In this document: in pieces, positions 16,521 to 49,981 of the stretch
Layout: each line of letters opens with the position of its first letter
Position numbering within the stretch: position 1 is the first letter of the stretch
NCBI GenBank assembly: GCA_000165345.1
Contig: CM000430.1
Span: 64,001-128,000, forward strand
Length of the DNA: 64,000 bases
Reading direction: 5' to 3'
Program-made: the position numbers and the translations under genes
The notes under the pieces: generated by a model
Database searches by the model: none
What the model saw: the letters and a program-made list of their open reading frames with translations, nothing else
Told to the model about the DNA's origin: nothing

Positions 16521-16766
16521 GAAACAGTATTATACAATCAAACTTTCTTAAAGAATTCAAAAACAATAGTGTGGGAATAAAATTAAGAAGCTATTGATTA
16601 ATAATGATAAAAACTACCATAATTAATGAATAATCTTAGGCATCCAAAGATCAGAGTTCCTCCAATGTTTGAACAAAAAATTGTTAAGATAATCAAACAT
16701 AAGCAAATCTTTTGAATTCAGAACTCCATATAATATATCCATTCAAAAAATATATATATACAGAAT

Positions 16767-16922
16767 TTACATCCCGAGCTTAGTTCTTAACCAGTGACGC
16801 TTCTTAACGTTGTATCTGATATCAGTATCGTTCTTCATGCGGAACCAGTGTGGTACAGCTCTGTTCTGCTTCATCTTCTTACCGAGACGCTTCTTTAACA
16901 TGAAACCTTTGTTTGCTCCCAT
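16767..16922 (-). CDS. RPL39: 60S ribosomal protein L39e (RPL39), 51 aa, intronless. Below the ORF-track size cut-off.
   Basis: Hand translation of the minus strand gives [51 protein letters not shown]. This matches the eukaryotic RPL39 consensus (..KKRLAKK.KQNRPIPQWIRMKT.N.IRYN.KRRHWRRTKLGL). Confidence 0.85.
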
Positions 16923-17097
16923 TTCGTCAACCTTTTATTGCAACAAATTTAAAAATATTGTTTAGTAAAATAAAAGTTATTTAACAATTGAAAGTTATTG
17001 CCTTTTACACTGTTTAATGTTGTTATTTATACGGTTGTATTAATTATAATATTATTAATATATTTAATTAGTTGACTAATAAATTATTATTTAGCAG

Positions 17098-17109
17098 GCG
17101 CCAAATTTA
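17098..17109. promoter_or_regulatory. E2F-like GGCGCCAAATTT site ~180 bp upstream of RPL39.
   Basis: GC motif in AT-rich intergenic DNA. Confidence 0.45.
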
Positions 17110-17385
17110 CTAAGACAAAAAAATGGCAGGTACTATACCGCTGGAATTTTGTCTCGTCTCGCTACTTTGTAAAAAATTTACGAAAATATTGTGTATATAG
17201 ATCTCGATTGTGAGATGAAAAAAAGATGAAAAAAAAAAATTGGAGAAAAAGTTGATGAGTAGGAGTTAAATAATAATAAGCTAATTAGTGAATACTATAA
17301 AAATACTATATAGTGAAATGAATGATATAAACTAAAGTAGATATGTATTGTAGGAAGTATGAAAACAAATAGAATAGCCTCATTT

Positions 17386-19560
17386 CTAAACCTCAGTGGA
17401 AATAACTTCCTGGATAGTTTCAAGCTCAATCTCGATAACTTCTTCTTGTTCTTCCCATTGTAAGGAATTAAGTAGGACTTCTTTTGCTGCAAGCCATTCT
17501 TTGTAAAGTGGTTGCTGAACCTTCCATTCTTGAATCTTTTGGAGAATAGCATTGAATTCATCCTCGTTGACTTTTCTCTTTTGGAGAACAATATTTCTCT
17601 TTTCAGATCTGACAGCCTCATCTTCAGCATCAAACTTTTTGCTGTAATCTTTAAGTTTTCTAGGAATTTCATCAAACTTTTCTTGTGAAAGAAGTGAAGG
17701 GGGATGAGGCCTCCAAATAAATTGGTAAAATGTCTCCAATGGTGAGTTGTAAAGTTGTCTGCCTTGGAAAGACCAAACTATGAAACCTGTTTCTGTGCTG
17801 TATTTATATGCACCTTCAGCTAACTTTGATTGGAAAGCTGTTGTAACATATCTACCGGTAGGATCCCATTGAATCCAGTTACACATAAAATGCTCATCTT
17901 TTTGCAAGATATCAAATTTGTTTTCATTTGTGAGCTGACAGAATGTTAAATTTCCTCCAGATCCACCTAAAACAAAATAGCTACCAAGTGGACTCCATTT
18001 AATTGTGTCAACAGGAGATGTTAAATAATATGAGCATACAAAGTCAGTTTGTGTTGCATTCACTTGGTAAAATCTCAGTGTTTGGGATCTTGTAACATCA
18101 TCTACAACAACAATGGCAAATCTATTAGATGATTCCCAGGATAAGCACTTGACAGTAACACCTTCAATATGTACAGTATCAACAGGAACATTTTTCTCTT
18201 TTACTCTAAAGATCTCAAGCTGAGTATATTCTTTTTTTGCCTTTTTACCAGCTTTTCTAGAAACTAGAGCCTTAAGACACATATACTGACCTTTTGGTTG
18301 CCAGTGGACAGATGCCTCTCTAACATTAAAGACATTCTTTATTGCCAACTCTTTTCTATTCTTAATAGAAAGCAAAGTAAGTCTACCTGGTGTATCTCCT
18401 CTTTCTGGACACCAAATTGAAAGGTTGTCTTCTTCAGGGGACCAATCAAAGAACTGAAGTGGATACTTTAATGGGTTCTTATTACCTGTAGCAGGATCTT
18501 CTACAAGAGTCATTGTGGAAGATTCATAGACAAAAAGTTCTCCTTTATCGGAGCAATGTGCAAGATAATTTCCAGTTGGACTCCAAAGGAAATGTAAACC
18601 ACTATCAGTTCCATTATTGTTAAGTGTCATAGTTGGTGTGGAAAAGCATCTTAAAAGTCGTCCAGAAAGTACATGCCATACTTTTACTGCCTTATCAAAC
18701 CTTGAATCTGGAGAAGAACCATCCCATGTTAATAAATATTCTTCATTTGGGCTGAAATCAATGAATTTAACATCTTTGTGTTCAAATCTAATCTTCTTAT
18801 CCCAATCATCACCTCCCCAAAGTGCAACACCCTGACGATGGAATGTCACTAAGTAAGAACCCATTGGACTCCATTGCACAGAAAAATCTGTCCAAACTCT
18901 TTTTCCTCCTTTAGCTCTTTCACCGTCATAAATTAATTCAGGAATTCTTTGAATAGAATCAAATGAATAGATCTCAGTTGCGCTTTGGTATCTAATAACA
19001 AATTGTTCTCTACACCTTGGCCCCATTAACCAATTTCTTACATCATCTCGACTGAATAAAGTCGGTGGTGGGTATAGAGTTTCAAAATGTCCTGGAGCTG
19101 ATTCATCTTGTTCAATAATTCTTTTTACATCATCAAACATTACTGTATTAAATTTTGTCTGTTTATCAAATGGTGCCTTTGAAAGTGCTTGGCAAACAGT
19201 TTCTGCTTGGAATGAATTCGAAAATGTCAATATAGCAACTCCTTTTGTGCTTCCATCTACATCCTGAGGTACATCAAGTAAAAAATTTTCGTCATACTCC
19301 ACTCTCATCATTTTAAGGGTTTGATTAATAATTGTTCTAAGAGCTTTAAGAAATCTCTCATATTTATCTGAGCCAATACATGGAAGTCCGAAAATAACAA
19401 AGCTTTTAGAAAATGAGTCTGATAAAGTCAGTGGTTCTTCTATTGTATTACATCTCTTGGAAATATATTCTTCAGTTTCCTCCCCATCATATGTGGAGTC
19501 ACTTAAATACTCCAAAAGATCAATATCTTCACCTAATTCTTCACGAGTAACTTTAAACAT
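17386..19560 (-). CDS. EIF3B: Eukaryotic translation initiation factor 3 subunit B (eIF3b/PRT1), RRM plus WD40 beta-propeller.
   Basis: ATG at 19560. The segment ...VQWSPMGSYLVTFHRQGVALWGGDDWDKKIRFEHKDVKFIDFSPNEEYLLTW... aligns with human EIF3B ([52 protein letters not shown]). Similarity continues across the propeller and C-terminal helix. Confidence 0.85.
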   Translation of the reverse strand: MFKVTREELGEDIDLLEYLSDSTYDGEETEEYISKRCNTIEEPLTLSDSFSKSFVIFGLPCIGSDKYERFLKALRTIINQTLKMMRVEYDENFLLDVPQDVDGSTKGVAILTFSNSFQAETVCQALSKAPFDKQTKFNTVMFDDVKRIIEQDESAPGHFETLYPPPTLFSRDDVRNWLMGPRCREQFVIRYQSATEIYSFDSIQRIPELIYDGERAKGGKRVWTDFSVQWSPMGSYLVTFHRQGVALWGGDDWDKKIRFEHKDVKFIDFSPNEEYLLTWDGSSPDSRFDKAVKVWHVLSGRLLRCFSTPTMTLNNNGTDSGLHFLWSPTGNYLAHCSDKGELFVYESSTMTLVEDPATGNKNPLKYPLQFFDWSPEEDNLSIWCPERGDTPGRLTLLSIKNRKELAIKNVFNVREASVHWQPKGQYMCLKALVSRKAGKKAKKEYTQLEIFRVKEKNVPVDTVHIEGVTVKCLSWESSNRFAIVVVDDVTRSQTLRFYQVNATQTDFVCSYYLTSPVDTIKWSPLGSYFVLGGSGGNLTFCQLTNENKFDILQKDEHFMCNWIQWDPTGRYVTTAFQSKLAEGAYKYSTETGFIVWSFQGRQLYNSPLETFYQFIWRPHPPSLLSQEKFDEIPRKLKDYSKKFDAEDEAVRSEKRNIVLQKRKVNEDEFNAILQKIQEWKVQQPLYKEWLAAKEVLLNSLQWEEQEEVIEIELETIQEVISTEV

Positions 19561-20215: not shown

Positions 20216-21037
20216 TCACTCAGCAACTCTAGCTAATAAAATTTCTGCTGCTTCTGAGACATCTCTGTTGTTGCTTTTGGTAAGAATTTGTAGTTTCTCA
20301 ACGACTCCACATTTTCGAATAGCGCGTGTATATTCCAATAATTCTTCGTTTTGGTCAATAATTAGATCTTCAATATGATACACTGCTTCCAAGGGAGTAT
20401 ACCAACTTTCTGGCTTATCAACATTTTTTGTAGGGGGATTGAGAAGACTTACTAATACTGTAATTCCACCAAGTCTCATAAATTCTTTTCTCTGATTAAG
20501 TCCTAATATGAAGATATTTCTAGCTGTTTGTGCGGAAGCTGCTCTAAGTCCATCTATTTCGCTTGACATACATTTTACTAAGTATGGAAGCACCCCGCAA
20601 TCAAACATGACGTTACAACATTCAACGTTGTTAACACTTAGAAATGAAAGCGCTACAATTGCACCATCAATTCTATCTTCTTCTTTGCTTTTAAGTAACT
20701 CTAATAGACCTTGAATTCCACCTTTCTTTCTAATTTCATCTTTGAGTTCTGGCTGGCTGTCTCTTGCAGCGAGAATTGCCAATTGAGTTGCAGCTAATGC
20801 TCCAACAGTTTTAGGATCAGCTGCCCAAGGATGCATTGGTTCATCTAATTTATCAATTGGTTGGGTTGAAGATAAAAGGTTAATAAATTCTTGTATATCA
20901 TTTTTATCATATGCTAAATCAAACCTGGAAATATCATCTCCTAAAGCTTCACTTCTATTCATCTTTTCTTGGGCTAACTTCTTTGCCTCCTCACTTTCTC
21001 TTCCAGAACAGCATCCTGACGAAAGAGTACTACCCAT
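20216..21037 (-). CDS. ARO: Armadillo-repeats-only (ARO)-like protein: N-terminally acylated (MGxxxS myristoylation plus a CC palmitoylation site) armadillo protein of ~273 aa.
   Basis: ATG at 21037. MGSTLSSGCCSGRE carries Gly2 and Ser6 for N-myristoylation and an adjacent Cys pair. The rest is helical ARM-type repeats (LLELLKSKEE..AIVALSFLS.., GGITVLVSLL..). Size and acylation motif fit the apicomplexan rhoptry-positioning protein ARO. Confidence 0.55.
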   Translation of the reverse strand: MGSTLSSGCCSGRESEEAKKLAQEKMNRSEALGDDISRFDLAYDKNDIQEFINLLSSTQPIDKLDEPMHPWAADPKTVGALAATQLAILAARDSQPELKDEIRKKGGIQGLLELLKSKEEDRIDGAIVALSFLSVNNVECCNVMFDCGVLPYLVKCMSSEIDGLRAASAQTARNIFILGLNQRKEFMRLGGITVLVSLLNPPTKNVDKPESWYTPLEAVYHIEDLIIDQNEELLEYTRAIRKCGVVEKLQILTKSNNRDVSEAAEILLARVAE

Positions 21038-21396
21038 TTTATTGCTATTTGTCTAGATACTTATGTTATTAATTAAGGAAGAATTTTTGATTATAGAAAA
21101 AATCAATCTGATCACAATATAATATGCCTTTATTCTCTGTAAATGTGTTATTAATGAAAATAAATATGATCTTGGAGTACAAAGATGAAAATATGTATGC
21201 ACAGCGTGATTTTAAGGGAAAAATGACCAATTTTATTATCCTTGTACTAAAATATTATTATTGCAACAATAATAATGTTAATAATGGTCTAAGTTATATT
21301 TAATATCTTTATATTTACCTTTGCTATTATTTACTATTATCTCTTCCAATTTACACATATAACATTTTTTTCTTTTACATGGTAACTTTGCCCGAT

Positions 21397-21432
21397 GCGT
21401 CACGTCTACTGCCCGTGCATGCAGGTAAAATA
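21397..21432. promoter_or_regulatory. Composite ACGT box (GCGTCACGTC) plus TGCATGCAGGTAAAAT (AP2-type TGCATGCA box), ~360-395 bp upstream of ARO.
   Basis: The 16-mer TGCATGCAGGTAAAAT recurs exactly at 46085..46100, upstream of Hop2. Confidence 0.5.
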
Positions 21433-21561
21433 TTCTTGTGAAGATGGAAAAATGAAATGAAAAAGTAAATAAATAATTAATAAAAAATAAAAATGGAGGG
21501 TCAATAAATATTGTAATTGCATCTATTTGTTTCTAGCATTGTAATATGTATAATTATTGAA

Positions 21562-34096: not shown

Positions 34097-37000
34097 ATTT
34101 CATTCCAAAAATTATATCAATGGAAATTATATATTAATCATAAATATCTTCAAATTCAACAATTTCTCAATTCTAATATATGTAGAAATATTATTATAGA
34201 ATTAAGAAATTTATCAAAAGAAACAAAATTTACTATACAAATTTCTGATTTATTATATCGTAATTTTATTATGAGAAGAATATTAAATGGAATAATATAT
34301 TGGAAATTTCAAAGTCAATATCAAAAAGAATGTAGAAATAAATATCAATTACTTGAAAATTATATTAATAAAAAATTAATTAATAAAATATTTATTAATT
34401 GGAAAAAAGAATGTCAAGATTATATTATTTATTATAAATTTATTAAAAGTATACAATTACCAATCAAAAAAAGAGTTTTTATTATTTTTAAAGGTAATTA
34501 TATATTCAATAAATATAATTATAATTGTATTCGAATATTTTTTATATCATGGAATTCTTTAACAAATAAAAAAAGAATATTAAAAGAAAAATGTCAAAAT
34601 TTCTATCAATTTTATATTTTAAAAAGATTAATAGAAAGAGTATTTAAACAATGGAGAATAAAATATTATCAGAAATTGAATATATATCAATTTTATGATA
34701 ATATTATTATTAAAAAACCTATGAAAACAATTTTTTATTATTGGAATAATAAAACAATTCAAAGATTAAAAAATGAAAAAGAATTAACAACCAAAATAAT
34801 TAATAGAGAAAAAAAGGATTATTTAAGAATGATGATAATTATTTATAAAATGAATAAAATTTATTATCAAATCAATTTTGGAATTATTAAAAGAATATTT
34901 AATATATGGAAGAAATTATATATGATTGAAAAATTTCATAGAATGAAATTATTAAAACAATATATAATATATTGGAGACATTATTCAATAAAAAGAATAA
35001 TATATAGAGATAAGATTAATATATTTATACAAGAAAGATCAAAAAGATTAATAGAAGAATATTATATAAGAATGATTATATTATATAGAAAAAGAATACA
35101 AATAAAAGAAAAATATGAATATATAAGAAATAGAATAAGAAATAGAAATTTATTAAAAATTATTCAAATATGGAAACAAAGATTTAATAATAGAATAAAG
35201 AAAAAGAATGATTATCAATATTTATTAATAATACATAATAATTATATATTAAAGATGTCAATTCGAATTTGGAAGGAGAGAATGTTAAAAGAGGAAAGAT
35301 ATAGATTAATAATCAATCAAGAAGAAATGAAAAGAATATATAATTTAAAGAGTAGAATATTAAATTATTGGAGAAAAATTTGGAAACCACATCATTATAT
35401 AAAAGTATCAAATGAATTAATAAAGATATTGAATAGAATAATAATACATAATTCATTTCATAAATTATTAAGAATAACATTTTATTCATATAAATATAAT
35501 AAAGATGAGGATAAGAATTGGATTAATATGATAAGAATGAATAATAATATAATAATAAATAAAAGAATTGGATATAGTTATTATATGGAATGTAGATGTA
35601 CTAGTAATGAATTAATAAGAGGATGTTTATTATTAAAAGATAATAATTTATGGATAATGAATATATTATCAAAAATACAAGAAATAAGAAATAATACAAT
35701 ATATGATATGTTATTAAGAATGAGAGAATATATAAGAATAAGAAAGAATTATGAGAAAGGTATAAATGATTTGGAGAAGAATTTAAGAAGAATAATATTA
35801 TCAAGAGTTTGGATAGAGATGATTAATAATATAGAAAGAATATGGATGATAGGAAGATTAATAATAATAATAAGAAATAGAAGAGAGGAGAGAATAAAGA
35901 GACAAGTATTAGTAAGATGGGTGAATAAATATAATGAGAATTATAGGAATAAATGTATAATAGAATATATGAGAAGAATATATGGTAATACAATAAAGAT
36001 TAAATGTTATTTAATTTGGTCAATAAAATTTGAGATAATAAAAAAGAAGAAGAGATTAAAAGAAAGATATGAGAAATATTTAAGAGTTTATATAATAGAA
36101 TATACAATAAGAAGAATGAATGAATATTATTTATATAATAAATGGTTAATATGGTGTAAGAAAGCTTATGATAGAATAGAATGGGTACATGATTTTAGAT
36201 TAAAATCGATATTATTTATAAATTGGAGAAGATATTCAAAAAAGCAGAAAATATTAAGGGATGAATTATATATATTATATAATAAAGTAAAGATAAGAAA
36301 GAAAGGATATATATTAATAGAATGGGTGAATAGGATAAGAATATTATTAAGAATGAGAAATGATGCTGAGAATTATTATTTGAATAATATAATATATAGA
36401 AGAAGATTTAAAGATTGTTTTAATATATGGAGAGGATTATCATTAAGATTAAGAAATCAAAAGAAGAAGATAATGGATTATTTGGAGAATAAGAATAAGA
36501 ATTTGAAGATTACATGTTTTAAACTTTGGAGATTTTTTATTTATTATAGAAAGACAAGGAATTCAAGATTTGAGAAGATAACAAATATAATAAGATTGAA
36601 TCATTTAAATATGATGGTTTATAGAATATTTTATTCATGGAAATTAAAGATGATAGAATTAAGATCTTTAAAGAATTCAATATTTTCATTTTGGAATTCT
36701 GGTATGGGTTTGGAGATGGAGGAGAGTGGATTGGGAGTGGAGGATGGTGAGAGGGGAGGAAGAAGAGGGAGAGGAGTTGGAGGAGAAGGAAGGGTTGGAG
36801 GAAGAGGAAGGGGAGGGATGGGAGGAGAAATGGAAAGGGGAGGGATGGGAGGAGAAATGGAAAGGGGAGAAATGGTAAGAGGAGAAATGGTAAGAGGAGA
36901 AATGATAAGAGGAGAAATAGAAAGAAGAAGCGAAATAAAAGAAAGAAGAGAGATGAACGAGCTCATTTCTCCATCAACTTTTAATTCTCCTTCTCAATAC

Positions 37001-38350
37001 TCTTTGGAGTTTTCAGTGGATTCACCTTCATTTAAGTTAAAAGAGGAGGAGGATGGTGTAGGGGAGGAAGATTTAGATAATGGAGAGAAAAGAAGAAAAG
37101 GAAAGGGGGAGAAAAAAGATGTTGAGAGAAAGGATTATGGATTCATGAGTATATTTTCATCAAGTGGAAATTCTTCATTAGAGTTAGTATCTCAAAGGTT
37201 GGAATCAACACGTCAAGATGATTTGAGAGGTGTAGTTAAAGAAAGAGAAATTCAAGGTCAAGCAAGGAATAATTATGGGAATTCATCTCCATCATCTACT
37301 CGTGAATATGTTAATAGGTTACTTTCCTCTTCTTCTTCTTCTTCTTCTTTGTCTGCTTTATCCGATATTTCAGAAAAAGTTTCAATAAAAGACTCTCCAT
37401 ATACTAATTCCAAGACAAAAAGATCTCATAATTCTTATTCAAAAGCTAGAAGATCATTTTCTCCTTTCCTTCAATATTCTGTGTCTTCTTCTTCTTCCTC
37501 TTTACAGTCACTATCATATTCAGATGGTGACTTGGAGATTGATGAACTACATTCTGCAACAAAGTTAAAGATAAATAGAACTCGTAAGGATCAAAATTCG
37601 TTAGACTGGAATTCACCTTCATTATCTCCACAACAACCACCATCTTCATTATCTCTTCCTCCTCCACCATCTTCATTATCTCCTCCTCCACAAGTGACTT
37701 CATCATCTCTACAACCTTCATTATCTTCTTCACCGCCTCCAATATCTCGACAATCTCTATCTTTACCACAACAGCAATCTAATCCATCTTCACCTTCACT
37801 TCCACATCTATCTTTACCTCCTCCTCCTCCTCCACAATATTCGAGTTATAAATCTTCAAATTCAAGTAATAATGATTCAATGATAATAAATCGATCAAAT
37901 TTATCTTCAAAGTTACCTCTTCCATTTCCAATTCCTATTCAACAACAGCCACAATTACAAATGGTAAATCAGGATGTGAAACAATTGTATGATTCAAATT
38001 TCACTTCTTCTTCTTCTTCTTCTTCCTCTTATTTTTCCTCTGCTTTTTCACCCTCTTCTTACTCAAAGAAAATTACTGAAGATCCAAATTTATTATTAGT
38101 AAAACTTGATACTGATACAAATCAAACAATTAAAGATCTTCCTCAAGATCCTTATCATATCTCAAGTTCTAGTCCAATCTTTAAAACAATCAAGACTGAT
38201 TTAAACAATATTCCTAATCAAAACTTTAAAGATGACCAACAAATTGAGTCCAATATAAACATAAAACCCACTCATTCTCAAAACAATAATATATTCACTT
38301 CTTCTATTTCTTCCTCTTCATCCTCATCTTTCCCTTCTCAGTCTTCATAA
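34097..38350 (+). CDS. Giant low-complexity protein. It has an Sfi1-like centrin-binding repeat region (~23 W-containing ~33-aa repeats), then a Gly/Arg/Glu (RGG-like) block, then a Ser/Pro-rich tail. The 5' end is undefined because of the gap.
   Basis: The ORF is open from the gap to the stop at 38350. Repeats such as LIERVFKQWR, IIKRIFNIWKK, LLKQYIIYWRH, LKMSIRIWKE and LINKIFINWKK fit the Sfi1 consensus [LI][LI]x3[FLI]x2W[KR]. This segment is extremely AT-rich (~20% GC). Then GRGGRRGRGVGGEGRVGGRGRGGMGGEMERG.., then SSSSSS / PPPPSSLS tracts. Confidence 0.5.
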   Translation: MSFQKLYQWKLYINHKYLQIQQFLNSNICRNIIIELRNLSKETKFTIQISDLLYRNFIMRRILNGIIYWKFQSQYQKECRNKYQLLENYINKKLINKIFINWKKECQDYIIYYKFIKSIQLPIKKRVFIIFKGNYIFNKYNYNCIRIFFISWNSLTNKKRILKEKCQNFYQFYILKRLIERVFKQWRIKYYQKLNIYQFYDNIIIKKPMKTIFYYWNNKTIQRLKNEKELTTKIINREKKDYLRMMIIIYKMNKIYYQINFGIIKRIFNIWKKLYMIEKFHRMKLLKQYIIYWRHYSIKRIIYRDKINIFIQERSKRLIEEYYIRMIILYRKRIQIKEKYEYIRNRIRNRNLLKIIQIWKQRFNNRIKKKNDYQYLLIIHNNYILKMSIRIWKERMLKEERYRLIINQEEMKRIYNLKSRILNYWRKIWKPHHYIKVSNELIKILNRIIIHNSFHKLLRITFYSYKYNKDEDKNWINMIRMNNNIIINKRIGYSYYMECRCTSNELIRGCLLLKDNNLWIMNILSKIQEIRNNTIYDMLLRMREYIRIRKNYEKGINDLEKNLRRIILSRVWIEMINNIERIWMIGRLIIIIRNRREERIKRQVLVRWVNKYNENYRNKCIIEYMRRIYGNTIKIKCYLIWSIKFEIIKKKKRLKERYEKYLRVYIIEYTIRRMNEYYLYNKWLIWCKKAYDRIEWVHDFRLKSILFINWRRYSKKQKILRDELYILYNKVKIRKKGYILIEWVNRIRILLRMRNDAENYYLNNIIYRRRFKDCFNIWRGLSLRLRNQKKKIMDYLENKNKNLKITCFKLWRFFIYYRKTRNSRFEKITNIIRLNHLNMMVYRIFYSWKLKMIELRSLKNSIFSFWNSGMGLEMEESGLGVEDGERGGRRGRGVGGEGRVGGRGRGGMGGEMERGGMGGEMERGEMVRGEMVRGEMIRGEIERRSEIKERREMNELISPSTFNSPSQYSLEFSVDSPSFKLKEEEDGVGEEDLDNGEKRRKGKGEKKDVERKDYGFMSIFSSSGNSSLELVSQRLESTRQDDLRGVVKEREIQGQARNNYGNSSPSSTREYVNRLLSSSSSSSSLSALSDISEKVSIKDSPYTNSKTKRSHNSYSKARRSFSPFLQYSVSSSSSSLQSLSYSDGDLEIDELHSATKLKINRTRKDQNSLDWNSPSLSPQQPPSSLSLPPPPSSLSPPPQVTSSSLQPSLSSSPPPISRQSLSLPQQQSNPSSPSLPHLSLPPPPPPQYSSYKSSNSSNNDSMIINRSNLSSKLPLPFPIPIQQQPQLQMVNQDVKQLYDSNFTSSSSSSSSYFSSAFSPSSYSKKITEDPNLLLVKLDTDTNQTIKDLPQDPYHISSSSPIFKTIKTDLNNIPNQNFKDDQQIESNINIKPTHSQNNNIFTSSISSSSSSSFPSQSS
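36720..36935. repeat. Coding minisatellite (~18-21 nt units, GGAGAAATGGTAAGAGGA-like) encoding GEMERG/GEMVRG repeats.
   Basis: Tandem near-identical units are visible in the sequence. Confidence 0.6.
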
Positions 38351-38582
38351 TGACACCACTTATTACAAATATCGCTATTTACTCAACTCAATGTCACCAA
38401 AGGGACAACACTCTTAAAACTACCATAACGAAGCCATTCTTAACACCACCATAAAGACACTACTCTTAACACAACTCATAACATTACTATTAAAATCACT
38501 CCCAACTCTACTTCTACTCTATTACTATTCTCAGTTTTATACCCCAAAGCTAATTTCCTTTAGTCCCACTACCACTACCAAG

Positions 38583-38658
38583 AATTCCCGCCCATTTCTA
38601 TGCATGCATGGATTTTACAACTTACGTGTCAATTGACACGTAATTTGCATGCAAAAAT
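38583..38658. promoter_or_regulatory. Dense cis-element cluster. E2F-like TTCCCGCCC (38586..38594), TGCATGCATG (38601..38610), a perfect 22-bp palindrome TTACGTGTCAATTGACACGTAA (38622..38643) and TTTGCATGCAAAAA (38645..38658).
   Basis: Seen directly in the sequence. The ACGTGT + TGCATGCA pairing recurs at 42490..42518, 46040..46100 and 21397..21432. Confidence 0.5.
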
Positions 38659-38734
38659 TATTAATTTATATTGAAAGAGAAGGAGAAAGGGAGGAAAAAA
38701 AGAGAGGAGGGAACAGAAAAAGACATAGTAGGAC

Positions 38735-38815
38735 AAGACAAAGTAAAGCGAGACAAAGCAAAGCAAGACGACAAAGCAAAGCAAGAAGACAAAGCAAAGC
38801 AAGACAAGGTAAAAC
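38735..38815. repeat. Tandem ~18-nt repeat (A/G)ACAAAGCAAAGCAAGAC x4, followed by an (ATT/ACT)n trinucleotide run at ~38845..38890.
   Basis: Seen in the sequence. It lies inside the small ORFs 38649..38834 and 38671..38895. Confidence 0.6.
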
Positions 38816-38999
38816 TAGGCCAAGTTTATTTTAATTTTATCCGTATGCAATTATTATTACTGCTATTACTATTACTATTATTATTACTATTTTGAAATTT
38901 TTAAATAATAGAGTAATACATATTGGGAGGTGAAATATTATAATTCTATTTATTTTATTCTCTTCTCTGAATGTAATATTCGTTTACTTGATTCTTAAT

Positions 39000-40415
39000 T
39001 CAAGCACTCATATCTAAAATAAATCCATACTTGACAGAATCAGGATCATTTAGTTTTCGAGGATCAATTTGAGCTCCAAATGTTGCTGAGATATTTTTTG
39101 TAAAATTATGAGTCAAAGAATATGCCATTTTTAAATTATTCATTACTTTAAATCTTAAATCAGTACTCTTCATATTATTAGTCATAGATCCAAAGGAAAT
39201 CTTACCTCCTATTGTATATTGAACTTTATCTGAAAATTTTGTTAAATAATTTTCATAATAAGTTTTTGATACTTTATTTTTGGTGATTAATCCTAATCCA
39301 TTATCTTCAATTTGTTGAATATTATCTTCATTATTATTTCCATTATTATTTTCAGTATTATAAGATATCATTAAGCCTAAAGTTAAATAATTTCTAACTA
39401 AATTGTTTAATATTAATCCTCCTGTAAATCCAGATAACTTATTATTTTGATGATTTGTATTAGTTTGTAATGATAAAACATAATTTGGTGTTAAAATAGA
39501 AATTGGACTTAATGTTGATGATCCTCCTATTCCTTCATATAAATCATTATTATCATTAGTATTATTATTATTACAAATCATACTATTCTTAAAACGTGAT
39601 CCAAAATTTTCTTTCTTATGTATTAAACCTTGATAATTAAATTGTTCATATCCTTGAGATCTTTCATTAATTGTATCTTTACAAGATCTCATAAATAAAG
39701 GTCCTTTAAGCATTAATCCCAACATTAATTTTAATGAATTCTTATTATTATTATTATGGGGTAAATTTATATTTGATGAAGATATCATTGATCCAAGACT
39801 TAAACTATTAATACAAGAAAATGGTCTTAAAGTTATTGTATTACTTAACATCATACCAATACTATCTTTATTTTCTTTATTAGATTTATTCAAACATCCT
39901 AATGTTTTTATTGTAGGAGATATTCTAAATCTTGATTGAATATATTCACCTTGAATATCTCCTCCAATTTCTAAACAACCTGATCCATTATTAGTATTAT
40001 TATATGATCCCAATGAATTTGTTAATTTTGGAAACCTTTCATATTTTGATGTTAAACTTATACCATAATATGGTTTTGTTTTTACTTCCATTATAGAAAT
40101 CCCATTCATATCCATTTTTGTTTCCATTTGTGATGAACATATATTCCATTTTAATGTTGAATTTCCATCCAATGAGAATATTTGTTTACTATTATTATTA
40201 CTATTATTTTCTCCACAACATCCATTTCCATCATTACAACATTTTGACTTATTTCCATTTTTTCCTCCATTAGAAGGTGTTGAAATATTATAACTAAATG
40301 AAGGATTCTTGCAAATACTTGTGAGATTTAACTCTAATAATTTATCTTTTTCTGTTGGATACTTGGACTTAAATAATCCAATTACTTCCTTATTAAAATC
40401 ACCAACTAGTACCAT
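39000..40415 (-). CDS. TOM40: Eukaryotic-porin-family beta-barrel protein, most likely mitochondrial/mitosomal outer-membrane Tom40, with Asn-rich low-complexity insertions.
   Basis: ATG at 40415. The N-terminus ..FKSKYPTEKDKLLE.. resembles the Tom40 NPGTFEE motif. The C-terminus ..KYGFILDMSA resembles the Tom40/VDAC terminal beta-strand (KFGFGL..). Alternating-hydrophobic strands run throughout. N-rich inserts include NNSNNNS, NNTNNGSG, CNNNNTNDNND and NTENNNGNNNEDN. Confidence 0.45.
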   Translation of the reverse strand: MVLVGDFNKEVIGLFKSKYPTEKDKLLELNLTSICKNPSFSYNISTPSNGGKNGNKSKCCNDGNGCCGENNSNNNSKQIFSLDGNSTLKWNICSSQMETKMDMNGISIMEVKTKPYYGISLTSKYERFPKLTNSLGSYNNTNNGSGCLEIGGDIQGEYIQSRFRISPTIKTLGCLNKSNKENKDSIGMMLSNTITLRPFSCINSLSLGSMISSSNINLPHNNNNKNSLKLMLGLMLKGPLFMRSCKDTINERSQGYEQFNYQGLIHKKENFGSRFKNSMICNNNNTNDNNDLYEGIGGSSTLSPISILTPNYVLSLQTNTNHQNNKLSGFTGGLILNNLVRNYLTLGLMISYNTENNNGNNNEDNIQQIEDNGLGLITKNKVSKTYYENYLTKFSDKVQYTIGGKISFGSMTNNMKSTDLRFKVMNNLKMAYSLTHNFTKNISATFGAQIDPRKLNDPDSVKYGFILDMSA

Positions 40416-42003: not shown

Positions 42004-42489
42004 CTTTAATACTTGAAAAAAATTGGATATAAATATTGAAAAAAAAATTTCTAAATCTTCTTTATTTAATGTTTAAAAAAAATTGATTTATTTATATTAG
42101 TATTTATTTTATAGCTTCAATTGTCTTTATACCTTCTTCAGTCAATATTGAAACTATAAATATTATCACGATGATAAATAGTATTAATAATATTTTTATT
42201 GATTATTACTTGCAATAAAATATATATATATATATTATCAACTATATTTAATACAATAATTAAAAGTTATTATTATTCTCTTGAACAACCTTCAATTATT
42301 GTTATATATCTGAAAATTGAATTATATTTAAAATAAAAATAAAAATATTTTTATTAAAAATAAAATTCAAATTAATATACAAAAAATAAAAAAAGTAAAT
42401 TTTGTTATCTATTGTCCTCCTCATTATCTTTGGAAATTATTGATTCTTTTTATTACACGAATTTATTGTCCACATTAATATTATGATTA

Positions 42490-42518
42490 TTGCATGCATG
42501 CAATTTTACACGTGTTGT
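42490..42518. promoter_or_regulatory. TTGCATGCATGCAA palindrome plus TTTTACACGTGTTG (ACGTG box), ~490 bp upstream of the Tyr/Pro-repeat gene.
   Basis: Near-identical arrangement to 38601..38630 (TGCATGCATG-GATTTTACAACTTACGTGTC). Confidence 0.5.
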
Positions 42519-42721
42519 ATAAATCTTAATACCGGTATCAAATTAATGATGATATATATACGTAATAAATTACTTAATAATAAAATAATTCGTAATTATT
42601 ACGAATTAATTATTTATTAAAATTATTAATTATTACGTAATTATTATGTAATATATGTATATATATATTTTTTAATAATTAATATTAAAGGAAAAAAATA
42701 TTAAAATAATATTTAAAGGGC

Positions 42722-44515: not shown

Positions 44516-45879
44516 TTAAACCATCTCAATTCCTATTTCTTCCATCAAATCTGAAGCCTAAAAATTAATTACATATTTATAATGATTTTATTCAAGTAAA
44601 ATTATTGATCATAATCCACTTGAATTAAAAACAACTTACCTTCCTTTCCATAGATTCTGAAAAAGTGTCCACTGCAGATTTACATGCAGATTTGAGCTTC
44701 TTTAACTTTGCCTGAAATTCAATAAATGATAAATTTTAAAATTAATATTAAAAAAATAACTTACCTGCTTTTTTAACAAGCTATTCTTTAACTCTTTTAA
44801 TTCATTAACTGGAATAATCTCACAATCGTCATCTAACATTTTTTCCTTTCTTGAAATCTCCTCTTTAAGTGATTTATTCTTTAAAATGCAAATAAAAATA
44901 ATTAAAGATAACATTTTAGAAAAGAATTAATGCGTTATAATATTTTATATATCAAATTTTTAAATTTATATTATAAACTTACCTTAAGATTTTCTTGCAT
45001 TATTTTCTCTTCTAATTCGTCAATAGTTAATGGAACACTTATATTTCTTGTTTCTTGTTTAAGTTGTTTAAGCCTCACTTCCAAATCATTCAATTCTGAC
45101 TCGCAAACAGAAATACTTTTATCCAAAGCTTCCATTTCATCCTTGTTTAATTCTTTACAGTCACTTTGGTCTACTAAATATACTTTTTGTTTTCCATACT
45201 CCTTGCATATAAACTTCCCCTCGACAGCAAGACGTTCCATTTCATCAGTTACTTGCTTCTTTGAGTATACATTATGCAAATTATCAACCACATTTTGTAC
45301 TGAATATGGACGATTCTGCTCTTTCATATAGTTAAATATTGCCTCTCCTGCATCTCCTGCTGCTGATCCTCCCCCTGAATTTGCAACATTCCTCTTTGTC
45401 AAATTCTTTGGAGCAGACAGTTTCTTTTTCTTTGCCGGCTTTGTACTTTTATCTTCATCATCAGATTCTAATTCATCTTCCACTGAACTTTCTTTAGATG
45501 ATTGTTTTTTTGGTTTTGCAGGTTTTGAGTTAATAGACTCCCCCCCTTTTTTCTTTGTTGTACTTTTTTTGCCTTTTTTACCCTTTTCAAATTCTTCTTC
45601 TTCTAAATCCAAGTCATTTTCATCATCTTCATCATCACTATCTTCGTCTCCTTCATCTATAAAATCCATTTCCTCATCAAAATCACTCTCAAAATCATCC
45701 AATTCATCATCTTCATCATCAAAATCTGTGTATTTTACAACTTTTCTAGAATTTCTTGATGGTCTAACTTGAGATTTACTTTCCATATTATCATCTTCCA
45801 TTTTACTCTGTTGTGTTTCATCCAATCCTGTTCCTTCTTCTTCCATATTATTACCTTCTTCTTTGCTTCTTTTTACCAT
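44516..45879 (-). CDS. HOP2: Hop2/TBPIP meiotic homologous-pairing protein with a long acidic/lysine-rich N-terminal extension. Four exons: join(~44516..44557, ~44641..44710, ~44764..44877, ~44983..45879).
   Basis: ATG at 45879. Winged helix ..EAIFNYMKEQNRPYSVQNVVDNLHNVYSKKQVTDEMERLAVEGKFICKEYGKQKVYLVDQSD aligns with human HOP2 (YLQEQNRPYSAQDV...EGKIKEKTYGKQKIYFADQ). The track ORF reads through a GTAAGT donor after ..QENLK. Downstream exons NKSLKEEISRKEKMLDDDCEIIPVNELKELKNSLLKKQ | AKLKKLKSACKSAVDTFSESMERK | ASDLMEEIGIEMV* are each flanked by GTAAGT...(T)nAG introns of ~55-95 nt. The C-terminal EEIGIE matches the HOP2 tail FFEEVGIETDED. Confidence 0.65.
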
Positions 45880-46039: not shown

Positions 46040-46100
46040 CTTACGTGTTAATTTTTGCCCCTCTTGCAATTCCACATGCAAATTTGCATGCAGGTAAAAT
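46040..46100. promoter_or_regulatory. TTACGTGTTAATTTTTG plus CATGCAAATTTGCATGCAGGTAAAAT module ~160-220 bp upstream of Hop2.
   Basis: The same 16-mer TGCATGCAGGTAAAAT occurs at 21417..21432. The ACGTGT half matches the 38622 palindrome arm. Confidence 0.5.
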
Positions 46101-48981: not shown

Positions 48982-49484
48982 TTTCCTATTTCTTGATCCA
49001 CTTAATTGCTACTTTAATAATCAATTTTGTATTGATAATTAAATCCTTTTAATGGTTTTTACTTATCTACTTTAGTCTTCATTATTATTATTATTATCAT
49101 TTTTATTTTTATTACAACACTTCCATAGTAAGAAATTGAAGTAAACCAAGGTTAAATCTAGAGGATTAAGTCTAATCAACCATAATTGTTGAAATAAATT
49201 GAGAAATTTCTAGTAGAAGATAATAGGTTAAACAAAATGGGTATTTTGGTGTTACATCAAAAGCCCGCCATCACTTAAGTAAATCAGTTTCTATGCTATT
49301 GATATATTAATTTGTTTTACCTATAAAACTTGCCAATCTGTGCAAAAAAGTTTAAATATTAGCATTTATTTAAAGTAAATCTTTCCCATTACACTGTTTT
49401 ATCCTAGAACTACACTCTTTAATATCATTAGTCTAAAAACTTTAAAGAAAAAAATTTATAAACTAATATATTGTTGATTTGTTC

Positions 49485-49534
49485 ATGCATGCAAACTAAT
49501 GAAATTAGAACGATGACGTAATGGGCGCCAAAAT
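49485..49534. promoter_or_regulatory. Motif cluster CATGCATGCA plus TGACGTAA (CRE-like) plus GGGCGCCAAAA (E2F-like) in a 3'-3' intergenic region.
   Basis: The location between the PSMB3 stop and the 3' end of the 7TM gene is unexpected for promoter elements. This suggests an unannotated transcript. Confidence 0.35.
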
Positions 49535-49981
49535 TCCAATTCGAGATTTTAAAATCTACATTAGATGTAATATTTATAGAATTTTTTTTTCTATAGTTGT
49601 TTTATATTTCATGATACACATACATACACACTGTAATTTTTTCTTTTTGAATTTTTCTCCAACTTATGGTATATTATTGATTAGACCTCACCCGGTCTCA
49701 CTCAATGTTCGAATAATCTCGGGAATAAATTAAATTTTCATTCCGGACTAAATTGAATTAAAATATAGAAATATGTTAGATTTACTAAAAGATATATCTA
49801 AAAAGATTAGATAGATTTAAAAAAAAAGATAAGGTGAGATTAATTTGTGATTCTTTTTTTTAAAATAATATTTATTGAAAACTAATTATTCTTGTAAATA
49901 TTTTTCATTACAACTTATAATGATCAAATAATATATTGCGCAAACAGTTCCCGCATTTTAGTCAAATGTGATATTTGGAAC

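What the first reader, a model, noticed from the sequence alone, without database searches (positions are those of the whole stretch)
38380..38895. Unexplained locus between two convergent genes: CA-skewed tract, dense promoter-like module with a 22-bp palindrome, then a repeat-containing small ORF
Downstream of the Sfi1-like stop lies a ~200-bp tract with strong strand asymmetry, rich in C and A with almost no G. Next comes an E2F-like TTCCCGCCC, TGCATGCATG, the perfect palindrome TTACGTGTCAATTGACACGTAA and TTTGCATGCAAAAA. Then a GA-rich tract follows. After it come four copies of (A/G)ACAAAGCAAAGCAAGAC and an (ATT/ACT)n run. This forms small ORFs at 38649..38834 and 38671..38895. They encode a Lys/Asp-rich peptide ending in poly-Leu. 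The region would be expected to be only 3' UTR, because it lies between the convergent Sfi1-like and Tom40 genes. The motif density suggests an independent transcription unit, perhaps a lncRNA or a tail-anchored micro-protein.
Basis: seen in the sequence. Interest (0 to 1): 0.5.

Follow-up and report, generated by a model that had tools for sequence, protein, structure and literature searches.

The report
Conserved promoter-like module between convergent genes
In the gap between two tail-to-tail Cryptosporidium parvum genes sits a ~90-bp cluster of transcription-factor sites conserved across related species, most likely a promoter for a non-coding (antisense) RNA of a kind already known in this parasite; the repeats and small ORFs beside it are fast-evolving filler, not a gene.

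Summary
The window is Cryptosporidium parvum.

Comparing the same gene gap in nine further Cryptosporidium species or lineages splits the locus into two parts:
- **Conserved module (38571-38667).** It holds an E2F-like site (TTCCCGCCC), two GCATGCA ApiAP2-type sites and the 22-bp palindrome. It is the only part of the gap that still aligns with chipmunk genotype I and C. ubiquitum (z about 10, 0 of 300 shuffles). Such a cluster never appears in 300 shuffles of the window.
- **Lineage-specific low-complexity DNA.** This covers the CA-rich tract, the purine tract, the 18-nt repeats and the ATT/ACT run. The 18-nt array has 4 copies in C. parvum but about 1 in C. hominis and C. tyzzeri.

The small ORFs are not genes. 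They shift frame, shorten or vanish in the relatives, and the "Lys/Asp-rich, poly-Leu" ORF starts at TTG.

The module uses the motifs published for C. parvum promoters, which also lie within 100 bp upstream of its many lncRNAs. My best reading is a promoter for non-coding, probably antisense, transcription. Transcription itself could not be tested. This is a new member of a known kind, of modest interest.

The parts
34271..38350 (+). 3' part of the large upstream ORF ('Sfi1-like'; 2363-2370 aa in complete assemblies). Stop codon at 38348-38350.
   Evidence: No Pfam family was found, so the label is unverified.
38351..38584 (+). G-poor CA/CT-rich tract containing a 26-nt tandem repeat (38409-38481, 2.8 copies). 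Probably the 3' UTR or flank of the upstream gene. About 115 bp of it, including the 26-nt repeat, is present only in C. parvum, C. hominis and C. tyzzeri.
38571..38667 (.). Conserved module. It is the only stretch of the intergenic region that still aligns with chipmunk genotype I and C. ubiquitum.
   Evidence: Smith-Waterman z about 10, 0 of 300 shuffles. Alignment. Its motif content is kept in C. canis and L015 and is absent in C. felis, C. ryanae and C. bovis.
38585..38593 (-). E2F-like site. TTCCCGCCC on the + strand is GGGCGGGAA on the - strand.
   Evidence: The core GGCGGGAA matches the core of Motif 4, TTTGGCGGGAAV (PMC3734150). It resembles listed lncRNA-upstream instances such as TTCCCGCCCAA and TGCCCGCCCAT. 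It has 3 mismatches to the full 12-mer, so it is absent from the 2-mismatch list.
38601..38610 (.). First ApiAP2-type site, TGCATGCATG (AP2_1, BGCATGCAH). It lies 8 nt from the E2F-like site, and that spacing is kept at 8-10 nt in C. meleagridis, C. ubiquitum and C. canis.
   Evidence: PMC3734150; PMC4117751.
38622..38643 (.). Perfect 22-bp palindrome TTACGTGTCAATTGACACGTAA, an inverted pair of ACGTGT-type half-sites around CAATTG. No factor has been assigned to it.
   Evidence: it is perfect in all C. parvum isolates, C. hominis and C. tyzzeri. The half-sites are kept with a longer spacer in C. ubiquitum, and one half has decayed in each of C. meleagridis and chipmunk genotype I.
38646..38653 (.). 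Second ApiAP2-type site, TGCATGCA. It contains the ATG of the 61-aa ORF.
38676..38736 (+). Purine-rich (GA) tract. It resembles the published GAGA-like upstream motif family but does not match its consensus exactly. Its length and sequence vary between species.
38737..38805 (+). 18-nt tandem repeat GACAAAGCAAAGCAAGAC, 4 copies. The expansion is specific to C. parvum (about 1 copy in C. hominis and C. tyzzeri). Copy number is the same in the 13 C. parvum contigs examined.
38850..38891 (+). (ATT/ACT)n microsatellite. A short version is present in the relatives and its length varies.
38649..38834 (+). 61-aa ATG ORF, judged spurious because it is not conserved. It is called as a gene only by the automatic caller on raw Logan contigs, not in any NCBI annotation.
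38671..38895 (+). 74-aa ORF with a TTG start, judged spurious. It is the translation of the repeats.
38932..38962 (-). Conserved A/T block with AATAAA-type hexamers 40-70 nt downstream of the Tom40-like stop codon. Putative poly(A) signal of that gene (inference).
39000..40415 (-). Convergent downstream gene ('Tom40-like', 471 aa). It is 100% identical to the C. parvum Iowa II hypothetical protein EAK88890.1 / CPATCC_000904.

Best explanation
The core of the locus (38571-38667) is a conserved cluster of transcription-factor binding sites. It holds one E2F/DP1-type site, two GCATGCA sites of the type bound by several C. parvum ApiAP2 domains, and an inverted pair of ACGTGT-type sites for an unassigned factor.

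It most likely acts as a promoter placed between the 3' ends of two convergent genes. Transcription from it would start within about 100 nt on one or both sides. On the + strand it would run through the purine tract and repeats into the antisense of the Tom40-like gene. On the - strand it would run into the antisense of the Sfi1-like gene. The product would be non-coding RNA.

The surrounding CA tract, GA tract, 18-nt repeats and ATT/ACT run are fast-evolving low-complexity spacer or 5'/3' transcript sequence. The small ORFs are by-products of those repeats.

Shown: the motif identity, the non-randomness of the cluster, its conservation, and the non-conservation of the ORFs and repeats.
Inferred: that the sites are bound, that RNA starts here, and its direction and function.
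For: **1. Organism and context.** The window is C. parvum. The convergent gene pair is syntenic in every species fetched.

**2. Phylogenetic footprint.**
- The intergenic region shrinks from 649 bp in C. parvum to 419, 248 and 319 bp in C. meleagridis, chipmunk genotype I and C. ubiquitum.
- The best local alignment to the last two is exactly 38571-38667 and 38577-38664 (z 10.2 and 10.8, 0 of 300 shuffles). The flanking protein is only 72% and 59% identical there.
- C. canis and an unidentified species (L015) keep E2F-like and GCATGCA sites, and L015 also keeps ACGTGT, in a different arrangement. That fits a cluster of binding sites better than a fixed RNA structure.

**3. The motifs are the published C. 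parvum promoter vocabulary.**
- E2F-like TTTGGCGGGAAV and AP2_1 BGCATGCAH are over-represented upstream of co-expressed genes (PMC3734150).
- TGCAT(GCA) is bound by four C. parvum AP2 domains (PMC4117751).
- E2F is the dominant motif in sporozoite open chromatin (bioRxiv 10.1101/2025.01.17.633476).
- The same two motifs are the top motifs within 100 bp upstream of C. parvum lncRNAs. Those lncRNAs are mostly antisense and biased to the 3' end of the sense gene (PMC7840661).

**4. The motifs mark regulatory DNA in this window.**
- 15 of 16 E2F 8-mers are intergenic.
- Both motifs are enriched 17- to 37-fold over shuffles, and the cluster never arises by chance.

**5. ACGTGT next to GCATGCA is a recurrent element.** ACACGTGT followed by TGCATGCATGCA, upstream of the neighbouring 378-aa gene, is kept in eight of the nine species fetched, including C. 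felis, C. ryanae and C. bovis (C. ubiquitum shows only ACGTGT). CTTACGTGTTAATT plus GCATGCA lies upstream of the gene at 44971-45879.

**6. A precedent in the same window.** Another apparent convergent gap carrying an E2F site (16520-17386) hides a real small gene, RPL39. E2F sites in such gaps therefore do mark promoters.

**7. There is nothing coding to drive.** The ORFs are not conserved, and no Rfam family matches.

**8. The module is not needed for 3' end formation.** C. felis manages the same gene pair with a 16-bp gap and no module.
Against: - No RNA evidence could be examined.
- None of twelve 13- to 25-mers from 38220-39064 (both strands covered), nor the motif instance TTCCCGCCCAT, occurs in the lncRNA FASTA and tables of Li et al. 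2021. Both files are truncated in storage. Their pipeline also discards transcripts that look like read-through of the upstream same-strand gene.
- CPATCC_0009040 and CPATCC_0009050 appear in that supplement only in the mRNA cluster table.
- The E2F-like site has 3 mismatches to the full 12-mer consensus.
- The purine tract does not match the GAGA-like consensus exactly.
- The module is missing in C. felis, C. ryanae and C. bovis, so whatever it does is lineage-restricted.
- The direction of transcription cannot be inferred from sequence.
Confidence: 0.55

Rival explanations
1. A regulatory element that produces no stable transcript. In this reading it is a distal enhancer or silencer, or a boundary between the two convergent transcription units. 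The bound E2F/AP2 factors would modulate or separate the neighbours rather than initiate an RNA of their own.
For: The binding-site evidence is the same as for the best explanation. No lncRNA is listed at the locus in the held part of Li et al. 2021.
Against: In this very compact genome these motifs are described as promoter-proximal. More than half of the open-chromatin peaks are annotated as bidirectional promoters (bioRxiv 10.1101/2025.01.17.633476). No enhancer or insulator class has been described in the Cryptosporidium papers read here. C. felis needs no such element.
Confidence: 0.15
2. An RNA-level element. The palindrome would form a hairpin in the 3' UTR of the upstream (+ strand) gene and act in 3'-end formation, stability or localisation.
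For: - The 42-nt core folds at -13.8 kcal/mol, z -4.6.
- Across six species 96% of stem cells pair on the + strand.
- All four one-sided changes are G-U compatible on the + strand only.
- In C. ubiquitum the stem is kept while the loop grows from 4 to 13 nt.
Against: - No pair has changes on both sides, and no shuffle control is exceeded.
- Four of five transitions being compatible has p of about 0.19.
- Any palindrome folds on both strands.
- One arm has decayed in each of C. meleagridis and chipmunk genotype I.
- C. canis and L015 keep the GCATGCA/E2F content but have no hairpin.
- An RNA hairpin does not explain the conserved E2F and GCATGCA sites.
- An ATTAAA hexamer lies at about 38490, upstream of the module (sequence, inference).
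- C. felis lacks the element.
Confidence: 0.1
3. A small protein-coding gene: the first reader's Lys/Asp-rich or Arg/Ser-rich micro-protein with a poly-Leu tail anchor.
For: An ATG ORF of 61 aa exists and a promoter-like module lies just upstream.
Against: [quoted passage not shown] It is absent from more distant relatives.
- It is composed of microsatellite translations.
- The 74-aa ORF has no ATG start.
- It is not annotated in any NCBI assembly.
Confidence: 0.03
4. A CENH3-bound (holocentromere-type) site marked by the GA-rich repeat.
For: A 2025-26 preprint reports about 400 dispersed CENH3 windows in C. parvum typified by GA-rich motifs, 58 of them intergenic (10.1101/2025.09.30.679541). 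The locus has a 130-nt purine tract that is 84% A+G.
Against: - The locus maps to about 108.6-109.3 kb of a 992-kb chromosome, taken here to be chromosome 2 by size.
- No chromosome 2 window in that preprint's S2 or S3 tables lies there or at the mirror position of about 883 kb.
- The GA tract is the non-conserved part of the locus.
- The preprint itself notes that GA repeats occur at many unbound places.
Confidence: 0.03
5. A chance aggregation of motifs in neutral spacer.
For: AT-rich genomes throw up palindromes: one of 22 bp or more arose in 8 of 100 shuffles.
Against: The cluster arose in 0 of 300 shuffles. The module is the sole conserved island in an otherwise unalignable spacer.
Confidence: 0.02

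Closest known systems
Cryptosporidium parvum E2F/DP1 plus ApiAP2 (AP2_1, GCATGCA) upstream regulatory regions (Oberstaller et al. 2013, PMC3734150; Oberstaller et al. 2014, PMC4117751)
   Same: It uses the same motifs (the GGCGGGAA core and BGCATGCAH twice). It is intergenic, short and compact, and conserved between species. The same motif pair is seen at ordinary 5' regions in this window.
   Different: It sits between two 3' ends, with no annotated gene to drive. It also carries a 22-bp ACGTGT-CAATTG-ACACGT palindrome that is not among the motifs named in the main text of those papers.
Promoters of C. parvum antisense and intergenic lncRNAs (Li et al. 2021, PMC7840661; 766 lncRNA genes in the CpBGF annotation, PMC12179316)
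   Same: Those lncRNAs start mostly near the 3' end of the sense gene. E2F/DP1 and ApiAP2_1 are the top motifs within 100 bp upstream, and 17 lncRNAs have both.
   Different: No transcript at this locus was found in the held part of the 2021 set. The CpBGF annotation could not be consulted.
The gCATGCa promoter element of Toxoplasma gondii (about 82 nt upstream of 44% of transcription start sites; PMC7854901) and the TGCATGCA site of PF14_0633/cgd2_3490 ApiAP2 domains
   Same: The palindromic core is the same and it has a promoter-proximal role across Apicomplexa.
   Different: The organism is different. Here the element is combined with E2F, a factor family retained only in Cryptosporidium among Apicomplexa (PMC3734150; bioRxiv 10.1101/2025.01.17.633476).
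Micro- and minisatellites in low-complexity intergenic DNA
   Same: The 18-nt, 26-nt and ATT/ACT arrays are head-to-tail repeats whose copy number differs between sister species.
   Different: No copy-number variation was seen among the 13 C. parvum contigs sampled.

Membership tests
C. parvum E2F/ApiAP2 promoter module | E2F-like motif (core GGCGGGAA / TTSSCGCC) | tested here: met
   TTCCCGCC at 38585-38592. The core matches exactly; there are 3 mismatches to the 12-mer TTTGGCGGGAAV.
C. parvum E2F/ApiAP2 promoter module | AP2_1 motif BGCATGCAH | tested here: met
   Two exact matches, at 38601-38609 and 38646-38654.
C. parvum E2F/ApiAP2 promoter module | Evolutionary conservation of the sites relative to the flanks | tested here: met
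C. parvum E2F/ApiAP2 promoter module | Lies within about 100-200 bp upstream of a transcription start site, in open chromatin | not testable with these tools
   No RNA-seq, Iso-Seq, CAGE or ATAC tracks are available here.
C. parvum lncRNA (antisense or intergenic) | A transcript longer than 200 nt is detected | not testable with these tools
   Only an indirect check was possible. There is no match in the held part of the Li et al. 2021 lncRNA FASTA and tables.
C. parvum lncRNA (antisense or intergenic) | No conserved coding potential | tested here: met
   The ORFs are not conserved.
C. parvum lncRNA (antisense or intergenic) | E2F/DP1 and/or ApiAP2_1 motif within 100 bp upstream | tested here: inconclusive
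   The motifs are present, but the start site is unknown.
Small ORF-encoded or tail-anchored protein | ORF kept open, in frame, with similar sequence in related species | tested here: not met
   61 aa, 66 aa (frame-shifted), 27 aa, 28 aa, then none.
Small ORF-encoded or tail-anchored protein | Eukaryotic ATG start for the poly-Leu ORF | tested here: not met
   The 74-aa ORF starts at TTG.
Known structured RNA family (Rfam 15) | Covariance-model match at the gathering score | tested here: not met
   No match in the whole window. Only chance-level hits with E above 1 in 38200-39100.
Conserved RNA hairpin | Compensatory (two-sided) base-pair changes | tested here: inconclusive
   96% of cells are paired, but there are 0 pairs with changes on both sides and the counts do not exceed the shuffles.
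CENH3-associated GA-rich site (holocentromere preprint) | Listed CENH3-enriched 400-bp window | tested here: not met
   No chromosome 2 window lies at about 108.6-109.3 kb or at the mirror position. The assembly and coordinate equivalence is assumed.
Tom40 / eukaryotic porin (label of the neighbouring gene) | Pfam Porin_3 match above the gathering score | tested here: not met
   21.9 bits against 28.4, E 1.3e-4, C-terminal strands only. There is no PDB sequence-profile hit. The fold was not tested.
Sfi1 (label of the neighbouring gene) | Pfam Sfi1 repeat match | tested here: not met
   No family at E of 1 or below for the window ORF fragments. Only a W-[KR] periodic pattern is visible by eye.

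The most novel reading that the evidence does not exclude
The inverted ACGTGT pair (TTACGTGTCAATTGACACGTAA) is the binding site of a Cryptosporidium transcription factor that has not yet been assigned a motif. This factor would work in a fixed partnership with the GCATGCA-binding ApiAP2s, since the same pairing is conserved across nearly the whole genus at the neighbouring promoter. The tail-to-tail module would then be a lineage-specific (C. parvum to C. ubiquitum) bidirectional promoter whose antisense RNAs tune the two convergent genes.
Probability: 0.2. Interest if true: 0.45.

Novelty: new member of a known kind. Interest (0 to 1): 0.3.

Why it matters
If the module is a promoter, this locus adds one more case to the roughly 400-766 lncRNA genes already annotated in C. 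parvum. It is a clean, compact example: about 90 bp, all sites identifiable, and natural variants available in sister species. That makes it suitable for testing how E2F and ApiAP2 sites cooperate and whether 3'-end promoters regulate the overlapped genes.

The more useful by-product is the ACGTGT element. It is not named in the motif papers read here, yet it sits beside GCATGCA in three intergenic regions of this window, and at one of them the pairing is conserved across nearly the whole genus. It is a candidate new cis-element.

For annotation, the result is a warning. The 61-aa ORF that automatic callers report on raw contigs should not be annotated as a protein.

Tried and rejected
- **Rfam.** I searched the whole window at gathering scores and 38200-39100 at E up to 10. 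Nothing credible came back.
- **Transcript evidence from Logan contigs.** All contigs returned for the 61-aa ORF are multi-gene genomic contigs. None comes from the RNA-seq runs listed by Li et al., so they say nothing about transcription.
- **Li et al. 2021 supplements.** I searched for sequence fragments on both strands, for the gene ids and for the exact motif instance. There was no lncRNA at the locus. Both files are truncated in storage.
- **Other paper supplements.** Those of the small-RNA paper and the T2T annotation paper are not held.
- **RNA hairpin test on six species.** The stem is well paired, but there is no compensatory change, so the test is inconclusive.
- **CENH3/holocentromere idea.** It was prompted by the GA tract, but the locus is not among the reported windows.
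- **Neighbour labels.** A PDB profile search for the Tom40-like protein and Pfam searches for the Sfi1-like ORF gave no support beyond a sub-threshold porin hit.
- **Within-species variation.** There are two C. parvum haplotypes differing by 5 SNPs in 750 bp. Two of the SNPs lie just outside the motif cores (38593, 38610). There is no repeat-number variation. This is too little diversity to measure constraint.
- **GAGA-like consensus.** The purine tract gives no exact match.
- **snoRNA.** I considered a C/D snoRNA between the module and the Tom40-like stop codon. No C box (TGATGA) is seen on either strand by eye.
Full report
**What the window is**

The 471-aa ORF at 39000-40415 (- strand) is 100% identical to a hypothetical protein of Cryptosporidium parvum Iowa II (EAK88890.1, CPATCC_000904). 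It has orthologues only in other Cryptosporidium species, at 85% down to 36% identity. In complete assemblies the locus lies about 105-115 kb into a 992-kb chromosome. The window is an older draft with runs of N.

The gene pair is convergent in every species fetched. The large + strand gene (2363-2370 aa in complete assemblies) ends at 38350 and the 471-aa gene ends at 39000.
- 'Tom40' rests on a sub-threshold Pfam Porin_3 hit, and a profile search found no solved relative.
- 'Sfi1-like' has no Pfam support.

This does not affect the finding.

**Checking the observation**

Every listed feature is present at the stated place:
- the G-poor tract (10 G in 201 nt)
- TTCCCGCCC at 38585-38593
- TGCATGCATG at 38601-38610
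- the perfect 22-bp palindrome at 38622-38643
- TTTGCATGCAAAAA at 38644-38657
- a purine tract
- four copies of an 18-nt unit at 38737-38805
- an ATT/ACT run at 38850-38891
- the two small ORFs

Three refinements:
- The CA tract has its own 26-nt tandem repeat. Its skew continues that of the last kilobase of the upstream ORF, so it is not a separate element.
- The 74-aa 'Lys/Asp-rich, poly-Leu' ORF starts at TTG, which the bacterial ORF table allows but a eukaryote would not use.
- The ATG of the 61-aa ORF is the ATG inside the second GCATGCA motif.

The motif cluster is far beyond chance:
- E2F-type 8-mers are expected 0.43 times per shuffled window and occur 16 times.
- TGCATGCA is expected 0.59 times and occurs 10 times.
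- An E2F site with two TGCATGCA within 100 bp appeared in none of 300 shuffles.

The palindrome alone is less exceptional. One of 22 bp or more arose in 8 of 100 shuffles, although this is the only non-(AT)n palindrome of that length in the window.

**Comparison with relatives is decisive**

I fetched the orthologous gap from nine further species or lineages. It varies widely in length:

| Species | Gap length (bp) |
|---|---|
| C. parvum | 649 |
| C. hominis | 603 |
| C. tyzzeri | 550 |
| C. meleagridis | 419 |
| C. bovis | 370 |
| C. ubiquitum | 319 |
| C. canis | 283 |
| chipmunk genotype I | 248 |
| unidentified species (L015) | 245 |
| C. ryanae | 215 |
| C. felis | 16 |

*The module.* Against chipmunk genotype I and C. 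ubiquitum, the best local alignment of the whole C. parvum gap is exactly the motif block. It spans 38571-38667 and 38577-38664, with z about 10 and 0 of 300 shuffles reaching the score. The flanking protein is only 72% and 59% identical in those species.

Within the block:
- The E2F-like site, the first GCATGCA (8-10 nt away) and the ACGTGT half-sites are retained in C. meleagridis and C. ubiquitum; in chipmunk genotype I the first GCATGCA has decayed and the E2F-like site is altered.
- The palindrome is perfect in all C. parvum isolates, C. hominis and C. tyzzeri.
- In C. ubiquitum it keeps both arms around a longer spacer.
- It has lost one arm in each of C. meleagridis and chipmunk genotype I.
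- C. canis keeps the E2F-like site plus (GCAT)n.
- L015 keeps GCATGCA, ACGTGT and GGCGGG in a different order.
- C. felis, C. ryanae and C. bovis have none of it.

*The repeats and ORFs.*
- The 18-nt array is a C. parvum-specific expansion, with about one copy in C. hominis and C. tyzzeri.
- The 26-nt repeat tract is confined to the C. parvum/hominis/tyzzeri group.
- The purine tract and the ATT/ACT run change length in every species.
- The small ORF is 61 aa, a frame-shifted 66 aa, 27 aa and 28 aa in the four closest species, and is absent beyond them.

The micro-protein idea is therefore rejected. The 61-aa 'gene' appears only in automatic calls on raw Logan contigs.

**What the module is made of**

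The motifs belong to the published promoter vocabulary of this parasite:
- E2F-like (TTTGGCGGGAAV, DTTGSCGCCH) and AP2_1 (BGCATGCAH) are the main motif families upstream of co-expressed C. parvum genes (PMC3734150).
- TGCAT(GCA) is bound by four C. parvum AP2 domains (PMC4117751).
- E2F is the dominant motif in sporozoite open chromatin, where over half the peaks are read as bidirectional promoters (bioRxiv 10.1101/2025.01.17.633476).
- In Toxoplasma, gCATGCa sits about 82 nt upstream of 44% of start sites (PMC7854901).

In this window 15 of 16 E2F 8-mers are intergenic. One apparent convergent gap with an E2F site (16520-17386) turns out to hide a 51-aa RPL39 gene. Such sites in 'gaps' do mark real promoters.

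The palindrome's half-site also recurs beside GCATGCA at ordinary 5' regions:
- CTTACGTGTTAATT plus GCATGCA lies upstream of the gene at 44971-45879.
- ACACGTGT followed by TGCATGCATGCA lies upstream of the 378-aa gene. That pair is kept in eight of the nine species fetched, including C. felis, C. ryanae and C. bovis; C. ubiquitum shows only ACGTGT.

I found no paper that names ACGTGT as a Cryptosporidium motif.

**How it most likely works**

The best-supported reading is a promoter between two 3' ends that drives non-coding transcription. It could run rightwards through the purine tract and repeats into the antisense of the 471-aa gene, leftwards into the antisense of the large gene, or both.

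This matches what is already described for C. parvum:
- 396 lncRNAs were found in 2021 and 766 are in the newest annotation.
- They are mostly antisense and biased to the 3' end of the sense gene.
- E2F/DP1 and ApiAP2_1 are the top motifs within 100 bp upstream, and 17 lncRNAs have both (PMC7840661, PMC12179316).

The C. felis arrangement, a 16-bp gap with no module, argues that the module is not needed to terminate or process the two mRNAs.

The binding of factors, the existence of the RNA and its direction are all inferred, not shown. Evidence against:
- None of twelve sequence tags spanning 38220-39064 (both strands covered), nor the motif instance TTCCCGCCCAT, occurs in the held part of the Li et al. 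supplement.
- The neighbouring gene ids appear there only in the mRNA cluster table.
- That evidence is weak. The files are truncated in storage, and the pipeline removes transcripts that look like read-through of the upstream same-strand gene.

**Rivals**

- *RNA hairpin in the upstream gene's 3' UTR.* The stem is 96% paired across six species, and all one-sided changes are G-U compatible on the + strand only. However, no pair shows a two-sided change and the controls are not exceeded. It also leaves the E2F and GCATGCA conservation unexplained.
- *CENH3 (holocentromere) site.* The GA tract and a recent preprint suggested this. The locus is not among the reported windows on the 992-kb chromosome (taken to be chromosome 2 by size), and the GA tract is the non-conserved part.
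- *Enhancer or boundary without its own transcript.* This cannot be excluded.
- *Chance.* Excluded by the conservation.

**Verdict**

One component, the ACGTGT inverted pair, may be an undescribed cis-element. Interest is modest, and one look at stranded RNA-seq or Iso-Seq tracks would settle it.

Noticed in passing
window 42440-42545 (intergenic 42004-42721); orthologous positions in L001, L007, L009-L015: A composite module lies about 490 bp upstream of the 378-aa gene. Read on the - strand it is GATACCGGTATTA..ACACGTGTAAAATTGCATGCATGCAAT..AATGTGGACAATAAATTCGTGT. Its ACACGTGT-GCATGCA core is kept in eight of the nine Cryptosporidium species fetched, including C. felis, C. ryanae and C. bovis (C. 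ubiquitum shows only ACGTGT). It combines ACACGTGT, TGCATGCATGCA and the reverse complement of the lncRNA-upstream motif TTGTCCACAT of Li et al. 2021.
   Followed up: partly
window 16767-16922 (- strand): An intronless 51-aa RPL39 gene ([51 protein letters not shown]) sits in what looks like a convergent gap between long ORFs. A GGCGCCAA E2F-type site lies about 175 bp upstream, at 17097.
   Followed up: yes
window 48982-49981: A third apparent convergent gap (1 kb) carries TGCATGCA (49486), TGACGTAA and GGGCGCCAAAA (49513-49532). It has no ORF longer than 70 aa and no Rfam hit. It could be another unannotated small or spliced gene, or an ncRNA promoter.
   Followed up: partly
window 46041-46090: CTTACGTGTTAATT, which matches the left arm of the palindrome at 13 of 14 positions, lies 35 nt from the 16-bp palindrome CATGCAAATTTGCATG. 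The pair sits about 165-210 bp upstream of the TBPIP/Hop2-domain gene at 44971-45879.
   Followed up: partly
window 38345, 38485, 38513, 38593, 38610: Two C. parvum haplotypes among 13 contigs differ at these five positions. The last two flank, but do not hit, the E2F and GCATGCA cores. The 18-nt repeat number is invariant.
   Followed up: yes
window 21000-34300 (N at 25877, 26410, 26795-26796, 33968-34096): This draft-quality stretch has scattered N, a 100-N gap and only fragmentary ORFs. Complete assemblies annotate a single 2363-2370-aa protein here, so the 5' half of the large upstream gene is broken in this window.
   Followed up: no
window 38348-38353: The large upstream ORF ends in a tandem in-frame stop, TAA TGA.
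   Followed up: no
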